Below, piece by piece: positions 11,200-12,937 of a stretch of DNA of 64,000 bases. The translations under genes were made by a program, and so were the position numbers. How positions within the stretch are numbered: the stretch's first letter is position 1; each line of letters opens with the position of its first letter. The stretch covers positions 272,242-336,241 of the forward strand of contig DASTLB010000022.1 in the NCBI GenBank assembly GCA_035715365.1. The letters are read 5' to 3'. The notes below the pieces were generated by a model. That model did no database searches, was not told the DNA's origin, and saw only the letters and a list, made by a program, of their open reading frames with translations. Source of the DNA: Kofleriaceae bacterium (GTDB lineage Bacteria; Myxococcota_A; Polyangia; Haliangiales; Haliangiaceae).

Positions 11200-11840
11200 C
11201 GCACCGCGACCACGACGATGTGATTCAGCACGTGATCGACGCGGACCCGGCGCGCGCCGGCCGCGCGGAACAGCGCCTCGAGCCGCGCGCCGTCGAACAG
11301 GTGGACGTGCTCGGGGTTCTCGTCCTCGTGCGACGGCACGGTCGCGATCACCGCGGTTCGCGCGACGCGCATCGCCTCGCCGATCGCGCGCGCCGGGCCA
11401 TCATCGGGCAGGTGCTCGAGCACCTCGAGCGCGGTGACGCAATCGGCGCTCGCGTCGGCGAACGGCAGCGCGGTCATGTCCGCGCGCACCGCGGACAGCC
11501 GGGCGATGCCGCCACGCTGGACATGCGCGAACAGCTGCGCGCGATGCTCGAGCAGATCGCTCGCGGTGAGCACGACATCCGGCAGCGCGTCGAGCAGCGG
11601 CCACACGAACGCGCCGCGCCCCGAGCCGAGATCGACGAGCCGGGTGACGCCAAACCCGCGCAGCGCGCCGAGCACCGCTCGCACGCGCGGCAGCTGCGCC
11701 GAGCGCTTGAAGCGATGCAGCTTGAGGTTCGTGGCGATGCCGCGCGCGAGCGCCGTCTCGTCGTCGAGCGCGAGCTCGCCGAGCGCACCGCGGGCGTACG
11801 CCGCGGCGAGCGCGACGTAGTGCGACTCGTCGGTGATCAC
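11196..11840 (-). CDS. Small class-I SAM-dependent methyltransferase; candidate mini-Hen1-like RNA 3'-end 2'-O-methyltransferase
   Basis: 214 aa. Motif I is 'LVDLGSGRGAF'. An 'EVLEH' acidic/His cluster is followed by 'SHEDENPEHVH'. The start is GTG at 11840, a GTGA overlap with the upstream stop, and the 3' end overlaps the ligase start by 4 nt. The Hen1 assignment rests on context (ligase plus kinase/phosphoesterase) and on the E..EH motif. Confidence 0.6.
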   Translation of the reverse strand: MITDESHYVALAAAYARGALGELALDDETALARGIATNLKLHRFKRSAQLPRVRAVLGALRGFGVTRLVDLGSGRGAFVWPLLDALPDVVLTASDLLEHRAQLFAHVQRGGIARLSAVRADMTALPFADASADCVTALEVLEHLPDDGPARAIGEAMRVARTAVIATVPSHEDENPEHVHLFDGARLEALFRAAGARRVRVDHVLNHIVVVAVR

Positions 11841-12937
11841 GAGCCGCGAGCCTGACGGATCAGGCGCAGGTACGTGGTCTGGATCCGCGCGGCGAGATCG
11901 ACGAGCTCCTGCACGAGCTCCTGCTTCGGCGCCGCCGCGGCGAGGTGGGCGTAGATCAGGTTGATCGGGCGCTGCTTGACGAGCACTGGCACCACGATCA
12001 TCGCCGCGGGGTCGGGCGAGCATCCGAGCGCGGTCCACAGCTTGCTCTCGACGGGGTGCGGCACCGACGGCGGCGGTCCGACGAAGGTCTGGCCGGAGTC
12101 GTGCGCGGACTGCAGCGCCGACACGCCGCCGAGCGGCAGCGACAGCGCGCCGATATCCTGGGTGATCGCGTGCGCGACCAGGCCGCGCCAGCCGAGCGCG
12201 TTGCCGTCGCGGACGAGGAACACGACGAGCGCGTCGAACCGGCCCTTCGCGTAGTCGCACAGCGCGTCCGCGATGTCCTCGCGCTGGCCAGCGTGATCGA
12301 TCTTGTCGCACGCGTCCTCGAATGACAGCACGATCGTGCTCGTCGGGCTCGAGCCCATCGCTTGCGACGACGCGCGCTTGCGCCGCGGCTCGAGCGTGAA
12401 CGCCGGCGGCATCACCATGCCCTTCGCCGGTTGCTCGCGCCGCCGCTCGCCGGCGACGTCCGGCGCCTCGGTGCCGGGCCTGGCACTCCGAACAAACCGC
12501 GCCCGCCGCGGCAGCCCGAAATGCTTCTCGAGGTAATACAGCGCGCGCAGCTCCGGCACGATGTATGGCGTCACCGGCGCACCGAGCCGGGTCGCGAGCT
12601 CGTCGAGCAGCTCGCCGTTCGTCGGCTCGACGACCGCGACCGCGACCGCGCCGGCCTCGCCGACGTAGCCGAGCGGGATCGCGCGCAGCCGGTGCGCGTC
12701 GTCGGAGCCGAGCTTGTCGAGCAGCGAGCGGTCGACGTCGTCGAGCAGCGTCGGCGTCGCGACCGGAAACCCCGACAGCTCGGCGAGGTACGCCGACAGC
12801 AGCTCGAGATCGATGAACCCGAGCTCGACGAGGTTCGTGCCGAGCCGCCCGCCGTACAGCACCTGGTTGCGGAGCGCCGCCTCGAGCTGCGACAGCCCGA
12901 TCGCCGCGTTGCGCAGCAGCAGCGTCCCCAACTTCAT
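11837..12937 (-). CDS. MshEN-domain (T2SS-E N-terminal-like) c-di-GMP receptor protein with an uncharacterised GAF-like C-terminal domain
   Basis: The N-terminus has two 24-residue motifs separated by exactly 5 residues: '[24 protein letters not shown]'-VLYGG-'[24 protein letters not shown]'. This is the MshEN c-di-GMP-binding signature. The start is ATG 12937, overlapping the queC stop (ATGA). Confidence 0.75.

What the first reader, a model, noticed from the sequence alone, without database searches (positions are those of the whole stretch)
11837..12937. Stand-alone MshEN-type c-di-GMP receptor embedded between queC and the RNA-repair genes
The N-terminus carries the exact MshEN architecture: two 24-residue 'RLGxx[LV][LV]xxGx[IL]...LxxALxxQ' motifs separated by a 5-residue spacer ([53 protein letters not shown]). 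It is fused to a ~200-aa C-terminal domain of unknown function rather than to a T2SS/T4P ATPase. Its start and stop overlap queC and the methyltransferase, which implies co-expression. A c-di-GMP sensor inside an RNA repair/tRNA-modification operon is unusual.
Basis: partly seen in the sequence, partly recalled or inferred. Interest (0 to 1): 0.6.

Follow-up and report, generated by a model that had tools for sequence, protein, structure and literature searches.

The report
MshEN–GAF c-di-GMP receptor beside queC
This gene encodes an uncharacterised two-domain signalling protein, probably a sensor of the bacterial messenger c-di-GMP joined to a GAF-type domain; it has long been linked to the tRNA-modification gene queC, and the RNA-repair genes behind it are a later add-on found in few relatives.

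Summary
ORF 11837-12937 (-) encodes a 366-aa protein that begins with two 24-residue MshEN motifs separated by 5 residues. Its start overlaps the queC stop (ATGA) and its stop overlaps the methyltransferase start (GTGA).

The motif is not "exact". It has K for R and A for G in motif I, and L for the final Q in motif II.

This GAF-like domain defines a large family (753 clusters at 50% identity). It is almost always fused to MshEN (91 of 100 representatives).

The context claim is only partly right. The ligase/HD-Pnk (±methyltransferase) cassette follows the gene in only 9 of 64 related genomes. It matches a ligase + HD-Pnk repair module already described in Runella.

The durable neighbour is queC: 63/65 in close relatives and 10/10 where all other synteny is lost. 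In more distant relatives an opposite-strand gene often separates the two.

Most likely this is a c-di-GMP receptor/adaptor of unknown target. A functional tie to QueC is possible. A tie to RNA repair is unlikely.

The parts
11837..12937 (-). Whole gene: 366-aa MshEN-linker-GAF-like protein (identical to a Kofleriaceae MAG hypothetical protein, P0001)
   Evidence: There are 83 orthologs at 50-74% identity, all starting at M/V-KLGTLLL.
12863..12934 (-). MshEN motif I, residues 2-25 ([24 protein letters not shown])
   Evidence: It fits the relaxed motif of Wang 2016. The motif positions are invariant in 83 orthologs.
12848..12862 (-). 5-residue spacer, residues 26-30 (VLYGG)
   Evidence: V26, L27, G29 and G30 are invariant; Y28 is 80/83.
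12776..12847 (-). MshEN motif II, residues 31-54 ([24 protein letters not shown]). The last residue is L instead of the consensus Q.
   Evidence: Position 54 is L/M/I/A in 83/83 orthologs and never Q.
12509..12772 (-). MshEN_C (T2SSE_N1-type) alpha/beta subdomain, residues 56-143
12341..12508 (-). Predicted disordered linker, residues 144-199
   Evidence: AF2 pLDDT is 41-53.
12374..12448 (-). Conserved Arg/Pro-rich linear motif inside the linker, residues 164-188 ([25 protein letters not shown])
   Evidence: R165, R166, Q169, P170, G173, M176, P177, P178, L182, E183, P184, R185 and R188 are invariant in 50 orthologs. The pattern is still visible in the 31-74% identity alignment A2. Mean identity is 0.74 against 0.58 for the whole linker.
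11840..12340 (-). Divergent GAF-fold domain, residues 200-366
12934..13632 (-). queC (7-cyano-7-deazaguanine synthase), the conserved upstream neighbour; its stop overlaps the target's start
   Evidence: PF06508 E 1.3e-71; TIGR00364 193 bits against a cutoff of 150.
11196..11840 (-). Small SAM-dependent methyltransferase, first gene of the accessory cassette; its GTG overlaps the target's stop
   Evidence: Methyltransf_25/11. There is a weak Hen1 hit, E 1.2e-5. The gene call is in L089. It is present in only part of the cassette-bearing loci.
10402..11199 (-). ATP-dependent RNA ligase (PF09414), accessory cassette
   Evidence: It is present downstream in 9/64 close relatives.
9209..10384 (-). 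HD phosphoesterase + P-loop polynucleotide kinase (HD-Pnk type), accessory cassette
   Evidence: AAA_33 E 4.7e-25 and HD E 1.1e-4. Bacterial Pnkp kinase hit. The gene call is in L089. The ligase/HD-Pnk pairing is described for Runella in PMC6097658.

Best explanation
The gene encodes a soluble two-domain signalling protein. It belongs to a large, uncharacterised family that is mostly myxobacterial.

Anatomy (shown):
- Residues 1-143 are a complete MshEN domain. It consists of a four-helix MshEN_N module carrying the tandem 24-5-24 c-di-GMP motif, followed by the alpha/beta MshEN_C subdomain.
- Residues 144-199 are a disordered linker with a conserved Arg/Pro-rich motif.
- Residues 200-366 are a divergent GAF-fold domain that occurs almost only together with MshEN.

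Mechanism (inferred):
- The protein binds one c-di-GMP in the N-terminal bundle.
- Affinity is probably lower than it would be with the consensus Gln, because the motif-II Gln is replaced by Leu.
- Binding changes how the bundle, the linker and the GAF-like domain present themselves to a partner.
- The protein has no enzymatic or DNA-binding domain, so its output must be protein-protein (or protein-ligand) interaction through the GAF-like domain.

Genome context (shown):
- The gene is ancestrally linked to queC.
- In this genome it is also translationally coupled to queC.
- The methyltransferase-ligase-HD-Pnk genes behind it are a self-contained repair module of the kind described in Runella. 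That module was appended to the 3' end in a minority of lineages. It is not a conserved partner.
For: MshEN identity:
- Pfam and NCBIfam hits both lie above their cutoffs.
- The ortholog profile matches MshE, PilF and PilB N-termini.

Selection on the binding module:
- Residues 1-55 are 93% identical across 83 orthologs, against 59-65% for the other domains. Every motif position is invariant.
- Lys at motif position 1 occurs in nanomolar binders, and K167R lowers affinity in PilF (PMC11731258).
- Loss of one terminal Gln (Q218E) weakens binding 77-fold but does not abolish it.
- The motif starts at residue 2, so no N-terminal cap of the kind that blocks PilF GSPII-A can form (PMC12002112; inference).

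GAF fold.

Family:
- There are 753 clusters at 50% identity.
- 91 of 100 representatives of at least 300 aa also carry MshEN, and none carries an ATPase.

Context:
- The cassette is present in 9/64 close relatives, while the rest of a roughly 20-kb block is conserved.
- queC is upstream in 63/65 close relatives, and in 10/10 of the 50-54% identity group where all other synteny is gone.
- Of the queC-to-gene gaps, 77 of 83 are 200 nt or less.
- Distant family members sit in unrelated contexts, for example an ECF sigma/anti-sigma operon.
- A PilZ-REC-DUF4388 gene in the window shows that the organism uses c-di-GMP.
Against: - c-di-GMP binding is not shown.
- The final residue of motif II is Leu. 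This lies outside even the relaxed motif, and Q61V is one of the changes listed for the non-binder XpsE.
- The NCBIfam c-di-GMP-motif score is only 0.5 bit above its cutoff.
- AF2 models the N-terminal bundle with low confidence (pLDDT 64-69) and draws residues 2-27 as one helix.
- PilF GSPII-A shows that a near-consensus motif does not guarantee binding.
- Even the non-motif positions of residues 1-47 are almost invariant. That points to a constraint beyond ligand binding which this explanation does not specify.
- No partner or output is identified.
Confidence: 0.65

Rival explanations
1. The protein couples c-di-GMP, and/or a ligand of its GAF-like domain, to 7-deazaguanine/queuosine synthesis. 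It would do this by binding or regulating QueC, the product of the gene it is linked to.
For: - queC is the only neighbour retained once surrounding synteny has decayed (10/10 in the 50-54% identity group).
- Linkage is still seen at 34-48% identity (14 of 24 loci upstream on the same strand, plus 1 downstream).
- Gaps are typically -4 to +80 nt, with twelve ATGA overlaps.
- queC here stands alone, without the other que genes, in the loci examined.
- Both c-di-GMP and preQ0 derive from GTP (established biochemistry).
Against: - In the clade at about 40-47% identity a small opposite-strand gene separates the two genes, so co-transcription is not required.
- 9 of 24 divergent loci show no queC nearby.
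- Paralogous family members sit in quite different contexts.
- No link between queC and c-di-GMP came up in the paper search, judged from the returned titles and abstracts.
- No physical-interaction test was possible.
Confidence: 0.2
2. One reading: the protein is a c-di-GMP sensor that belongs functionally to the RNA-repair/tRNA-modification operon and regulates the methyltransferase, ligase and kinase.
For: - In this genome the six genes run head to tail with overlaps or gaps of 18 nt or less.
- Wherever the cassette is present, it begins at or within about 130 nt of the stop codon of this gene.
Against: - The cassette is absent from 55 of 64 close relatives and from all 10 + 24 more distant loci, whereas the gene itself is retained.
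- Cassette carriers form one near-monophyletic clade plus three scattered loci on an NJ tree.
- Ligase + HD-Pnk is a self-contained module described in Runella, which is not a myxobacterium.
Confidence: 0.08
3. The MshEN domain is degenerate for nucleotide binding and serves only as a protein-interaction scaffold, as the N-terminal domains of XpsE/GspE do. The extreme conservation would then reflect a protein partner rather than c-di-GMP.
For: - The Q61-equivalent is Leu/Met/Ile/Ala in all 83 orthologs.
- Q61V is among the XpsE changes linked to loss of binding.
- The non-motif 'x' positions are also invariant.
Against: - All the hydrophobic and Gly positions that make the main contacts (L3, G4, L18, L22, L32, G33, L47, L51) and the motif-I Gln (Q25) are invariant.
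- A single terminal-Gln mutant of PilF still binds at 460 nM.
- XpsE carries eight changes, not one.
Confidence: 0.25

Closest known systems
MshEN domain of Vibrio cholerae MshE (PDB 5HTL) and of PilB/PilF type IV pilus ATPases
   Different: No T2SSE ATPase domain follows. The last residue of motif II is Leu, not Gln. The motif starts at residue 2. No pilus or secretion genes are nearby.
Non-ATPase MshEN proteins listed by Wang et al. 2016 (NfrB glycosyltransferase; MshEN-REC; M. xanthus FrgA = MshEN-UNK-HEAT; MXAN_7500 and others)
   Same: MshEN acts as a portable c-di-GMP input module fused to a different output domain. Myxobacteria carry many such genes (17-22 in M. xanthus).
   Different: The architecture MshEN-linker-(C-terminal GAF-like) is not in their table; only GAF-MshEN-T2SSE is listed. 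FrgA has a degenerate motif and HEAT repeats. None of these proteins is reported next to queC. Homology of the GAF-like domain to FrgA's 'UNK' region could not be tested.
GAF domains (PtsP/EI-Ntr GAF 3TRC, MCP GAF 3OOV, free Met-R-sulfoxide reductase 3MMH/3KSF, Lcd1 cAMP-GAF 5W10)
   Different: Sequence identity is only 9-16%. The score is below the Pfam threshold (13.1 against 22.4 bits). The ligand, if there is one, is unknown. The domain has its own conserved signature: A..R[DE], NAxGW, SLPLGGxSxLQ and NLxYxH.
Ligase + HD-Pnk repair cluster of Runella slithyformis (Munir & Shuman 2017), and the bacterial Pnkp/Hen1 system
   Same: The three genes downstream of the target have the same make-up: a ligase ORF abutting an HD-phosphoesterase/kinase ORF, with a methyltransferase nearby.
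   Different: This describes the neighbours, not the target. No MshEN protein is mentioned in that paper's account of the cluster (the HD-Pnk passages of PMC6097658 were read). Here the methyltransferase is a small stand-alone SAM enzyme with only a weak Hen1 match.

Membership tests
MshEN domain (c-di-GMP receptor; PF05157 + NF053729) | Two 24-residue motifs RLGxxhhxxGhhxxxxLxxxLxxQ separated by 5 residues | tested here: met
   Present at residues 2-25 and 31-54 with a 5-residue spacer. There are three departures from the strict consensus: K2, A11 and L54.
MshEN domain (c-di-GMP receptor; PF05157 + NF053729) | [quoted passage not shown] | tested here: inconclusive
   Motif I fits fully. Motif II fits at 23 of 24 positions, but its last residue L is outside the allowed set.
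MshEN domain (c-di-GMP receptor; PF05157 + NF053729) | Profile scores above the curated cutoffs | tested here: met
   PF05157 scores 36.9 against 23.1 bits. NF053729 scores 38.5 against 38 bits, which is marginal.
MshEN domain (c-di-GMP receptor; PF05157 + NF053729) | Fold: four-helix N subdomain plus alpha/beta C subdomain | tested here: met
MshEN domain (c-di-GMP receptor; PF05157 + NF053729) | Binds c-di-GMP | not testable with these tools
   This needs ITC, DRaCALA or DSF on purified protein.
T2SS/T4P assembly ATPase (GspE/PilB/MshE) | C-terminal T2SSE ATPase domain | tested here: not met
   No ATPase family hit in Pfam or NCBIfam. TIGR02538 PilB matches only residues 2-139.
GAF domain superfamily | GAF fold (antiparallel sheet flanked by helices) | tested here: met
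GAF domain superfamily | Sequence match to the Pfam GAF models above threshold | tested here: not met
   PF01590 gives E 0.14 and 13.1 bits against a cutoff of 22.4. Each GAF model matches only 2 of 100 family representatives at E <= 0.01.
RNA-repair operon (ligase/HD-Pnk, Pnkp/Hen1-like) | Conserved co-occurrence of the gene with the ligase and kinase genes | tested here: not met
   The ligase is downstream in 9/64 close relatives, 0/10 at 50-54% identity, and 0 of 51 metagenome loci.
Queuosine/7-deazaguanine gene cluster | Conserved linkage to a que gene | tested here: met
   queC is upstream on the same strand in 63/65 and 10/10 loci. Among divergent loci it is upstream within 3 kb in 14/24, plus one downstream.
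Queuosine/7-deazaguanine gene cluster | A role in preQ0/Q synthesis or its regulation | not testable with these tools
   There are no other que genes in the loci, and no interaction or phenotype data are available.

The most novel reading that the evidence does not exclude
A c-di-GMP receptor (MshEN) with a second sensory domain (GAF-like) controls QueC. It would thereby control the supply of preQ0 for queuosine-tRNA or other 7-deazaguanine products, tying second-messenger signalling to tRNA modification. In one Kofleriaceae clade an RNA end-healing and sealing module has been recruited to the same transcription unit.
Probability: 0.12. Interest if true: 0.75.

Novelty: new variant of a known kind. 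Interest (0 to 1): 0.4.

Why it matters
MshEN is an established high-affinity c-di-GMP receptor module. Outside the pilus and secretion ATPases and NfrB, however, almost none of its many fusion partners has a known output. Myxobacteria encode about 20 such proteins each.

This work defines one large subfamily: MshEN plus a dedicated GAF-fold domain, with at least 750 clusters at 50% identity. The papers I could search do not list this architecture.

For the Kofleriaceae orthogroup it also gives a concrete, testable lead, namely an ancient linkage to queC. If that link is functional, it would connect c-di-GMP signalling to queuosine/7-deazaguanine metabolism.

It also corrects a tempting misreading. 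The RNA-repair genes are a lineage-specific passenger, not the system this sensor belongs to.

Tried and rejected
- A Foldseek search against afdb50, intended to find named relatives in cultured organisms, could not run because the library is not installed.
- The listing of cluster members on 10 distant representatives returned no informative names.
- Rfam found nothing in the whole window, in particular no preQ1 or c-di-GMP riboswitch. ARAGORN also found nothing.
- The sigma-70 promoter and terminator scan of 8300-15200 was uninformative: 0 promoters and 1 terminator-like site, against 1.2 expected.
- PADLOC gave no defence-system assignment for the target, the ligase or HD-Pnk. It returned only a generic QueC hit and a weak methyltransferase hit.
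- FrgA was considered as the characterised relative. Wang 2016 lists it as MshEN-UNK-HEAT with a degenerate motif, so it is not the same architecture. I had no FrgA sequence to test whether its 'UNK' region is homologous.
- I considered and rejected the idea that the C-terminal domain is a free Met-sulfoxide reductase. fRMsr is merely one of many GAF hits at 12-16% identity, and no Cys is invariant across the divergent alignment A2.
- I considered the idea that the queC pairing is plain synteny inertia. The pair survives after the surrounding block is lost. Inertia cannot be fully excluded, though, because the pair is split by insertions in several lineages.
- An AF-multimer test of QueC with this protein could not be run with the tools given.

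Full report
**1. Observation**

The queC stop and the ORF's ATG share ATGA at 12934-12937. The ORF's stop and the GTG of the next gene share GTGA at 11837-11840.

The protein is identical to a hypothetical protein of a Kofleriaceae MAG (P0001).

The motif is not a chance match:
- Pfam PF05157 (MshEN) hits residues 66-145 at E 3.7e-9.
- NCBIfam NF053729 ('cyclic di-GMP-binding domain, MshE-related') hits residues 2-53 at 38.5 bits, against a cutoff of 38.
- A profile built from 50 orthologs matches V. cholerae MshE (5HTL) over residues 2-128 at E 3e-10, as well as PilF and PilB.
- In the six-frame translation of all 64 kb, a relaxed motif (last position left open) occurs only at these two positions.

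**2. How good is the c-di-GMP motif?**

Wang et al. 2016 (PMC5013675) searched with the relaxed 24-mer [RKPN]hGxxhhxx[GAS]hhxxxxhxxxhxx[QNKRYWST].
- Motif I fits this pattern, with K at position 1 and A at position 10.
- Motif II fits everywhere except its last residue, which is Leu.

In MshE the two terminal Gln residues hydrogen-bond the ribose and phosphate. Q61V is one of eight changes listed for the non-binding XpsE.

Two results from PilF GSPII-B (PMC11731258) temper this:
- Lys at motif position 1 is found in nanomolar binders, and K167R weakens binding.
- Q218E, the same position as our L54, lowers affinity 77-fold, to 460 nM, but does not abolish binding. Only the double Gln mutant does.

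PilF GSPII-A (PMC12002112) is a warning that a near-consensus motif is not sufficient for binding. There an N-terminal helical cap and inter-subdomain contacts block the site. In our protein the motif starts at residue 2, so no such cap can exist. This last point is an inference.

Across 83 orthologs, residues 1-55 are 93% identical to the window protein, against 59-65% for the other parts. Every motif position is invariant, and position 54 is always L/M/I/A.

Binding is therefore likely, possibly with reduced affinity, but it is unproven. Even the 'x' positions are almost invariant. This suggests that the surface of the bundle also contacts something conserved.

**3. The rest of the protein**

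An AlphaFold2 model built on the ortholog alignment has a mean pLDDT of 82.6. It shows three regions:
- the MshEN domain to about residue 143, with the C subdomain at pLDDT 89-97 and the N bundle at only 64-69;
- a disordered stretch at residues 144-199;
- a confident domain at residues 200-366, with pLDDT mostly above 90.

Pfam's GAF model aligns end to end but scores below threshold (E 0.14).

The linker carries a conserved motif, ERRRxQPxxGMxMPPxxxLEPRRxR, at residues 164-188. Its role is unknown.

**4. The family**

Searching 1.84 billion representative proteins with the GAF-like domain alone found 753 clusters at E <= 1e-3. The domain is almost always at the C-terminus of proteins 350-770 aa long.
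- Of 100 representatives of at least 300 aa, 91 carry Pfam MshEN.
- One carries a protein kinase domain and one carries REC.
- None carries an ATPase.

This is therefore a dedicated MshEN-associated GAF-like domain.

[quoted passage not shown] Their architecture table lists GAF-MshEN-T2SSE and FrgA (MshEN-UNK-HEAT), but not this arrangement.

I found no characterised member in the searchable literature.

**5. Genomic context**

In the window the minus-strand run is: alpha/beta-hydrolase | queC | target | SAM methyltransferase | RNA ligase (PF09414) | HD + P-loop kinase. The junctions are overlaps or gaps of 18 nt or less.

I compared three sets of loci:
- 80 species-representative genomes;
- 14 loci retrieved by exact protein look-ups;
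- 51 metagenome loci found with a profile of divergent members.

Results, from tblastn of the window's proteins against these loci:

(a) In the 59-69% identity group a block of about 20 kb is syntenic.
   - PMT_2 40/42, DBI_PRT 44/44, FecCD 39/39, ABC 38/38, PilZ-REC 30/36, queC 63/65.
   - The ligase follows the target in only 9 of 64 loci. Elsewhere a convergent GGACT gene follows.

(b) In the 50-54% identity group the downstream block genes are all absent (0/8 to 0/10) and the upstream ones nearly so (PMT_2 2/9, M16 1/5, PTR2 0/7), yet queC is upstream in 10/10.

(c) Among 24 more divergent full-length loci (30-52% identity), queC is:
   - adjacent in 5, including loci at 34% and 40% identity;
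   - 0.5-2.6 kb upstream on the same strand in 9;
   - downstream on the other strand in 1;
   - not seen in 9.
   Where I inspected the 0.5-2.6 kb cases (L095, L102, and likewise L090), a small opposite-strand gene lies between queC and the target. The two genes cannot be one transcript there.

(d) Of 83 loci with queC upstream, 77 have gaps of 200 nt or less, and 12 have the same ATGA overlap.

(e) On an NJ tree of the orthologs, cassette carriers form one near-monophyletic clade that includes the window, plus three scattered loci.

(f) Distant paralog-like members lie in unrelated contexts. One overlaps the stop of an ECF sigma factor gene that follows an anti-sigma gene. Others are next to unrelated genes.

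A ligase ORF abutting an HD-Pnk ORF, with a methyltransferase nearby, matches the candidate repair cluster described for Runella slithyformis (PMC6097658).

**6. Interpretation**

Shown:
- the domain anatomy;
- strong purifying selection on the c-di-GMP module;
- the existence of a large MshEN-GAF-like family;
- the accessory status of the RNA-repair cassette;
- the long-lived linkage to queC.

Inferred:
- c-di-GMP binding;
- signalling through partner binding, since there is no catalytic or DNA-binding domain.

Open: the partner.
- QueC is the only candidate the genomes point to (my estimate about 0.2).
- The repair enzymes are unlikely (about 0.08).
- A nucleotide-blind scaffold role remains possible (about 0.25).

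The window also encodes a PilZ-REC-DUF4388 protein, so c-di-GMP signalling is present in this organism.

**7. Verdict**

Its interpretation is partly supported.

The feature is a new variant of a known kind: an MshEN receptor with an undescribed GAF-like partner domain. It is of moderate interest, mainly as a defined uncharacterised family with a testable queC lead.

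Noticed in passing
window 9209-11840 (-): The methyltransferase, RNA ligase (PF09414) and HD-phosphoesterase/P-loop kinase genes form a compact cassette like the Runella ligase + HD-Pnk repair cluster. It is present in only 9/64 related genomes, and it always starts at or just after the MshEN-GAF stop codon. The methyltransferase is missing in some carriers (L004, L007, L027, L071).
   Followed up: partly
L001 9632-10165; L004 8956-9510; L007 ~8394-8921: In some cassette-bearing relatives a hydrophobic, Gly/Ala-rich protein of 177-184 aa with no Pfam hit sits between the ligase and HD-Pnk. 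It is absent from the window.
   Followed up: no
window 4081-5139 (-): This gene encodes a PilZ-REC-DUF4388 protein, a second predicted c-di-GMP receptor about 7 kb from the target. It is conserved in the same block in 30/36 close relatives.
   Followed up: partly
window 13642-14424 (-) and 14484-14951 (-): The alpha/beta-hydrolase gene directly upstream of queC (9-nt gap) has no counterpart in any of the 80+ related loci, so it looks like a recent insertion. Its Pfam matches start well inside the profiles. A neighbouring ORF in another frame reads like a hydrolase N-terminus, which may mean a frameshift, but that ORF gave no Pfam hit.
   Followed up: partly
window 12374-12448 (-), residues 164-188 of the target: An Arg/Pro-rich linear motif (ERRRxQPxxGMxMPPxxxLEPRRxR) is conserved inside an otherwise variable, disordered linker. 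It is still recognisable at about 40% overall identity. Its function is unknown.
   Followed up: partly
L095 3400-4125 (-); L102 2248-2694 (-); L090 4435-4923 (-); L092 4508-4885 (-): In the orthologs at about 40-47% identity, a small opposite-strand gene is wedged between queC and the MshEN-GAF gene. It has a lipoprotein-like N-terminus and a conserved ..RFRAAG..V.DV....G....VDG[FY]DP....G[FY]EYVA.EE.. segment.
   Followed up: partly
L087 4665-7245; L088 486-3066: A distant member of the family (34% identity, 414 aa) starts on the stop codon of an ECF sigma factor gene, which itself follows a zf-HC2/Cupin_7 anti-sigma gene. That subfamily may therefore feed into sigma-factor control.
   Followed up: no
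window 35684-37444 (-), 39050-41431 (+), 41445-63912: The window also holds a GAF-sigma54 activator (NtrC-type), a Ser/Thr kinase with TPR repeats, and a long polysaccharide biosynthesis/export cluster. The cluster includes Bac_transf, UDP-glucose dehydrogenase, an epimerase, a Wzz/tyrosine-kinase-like protein, Poly_export, Wzy_C, PAPS reductase and a flippase.
   Followed up: no
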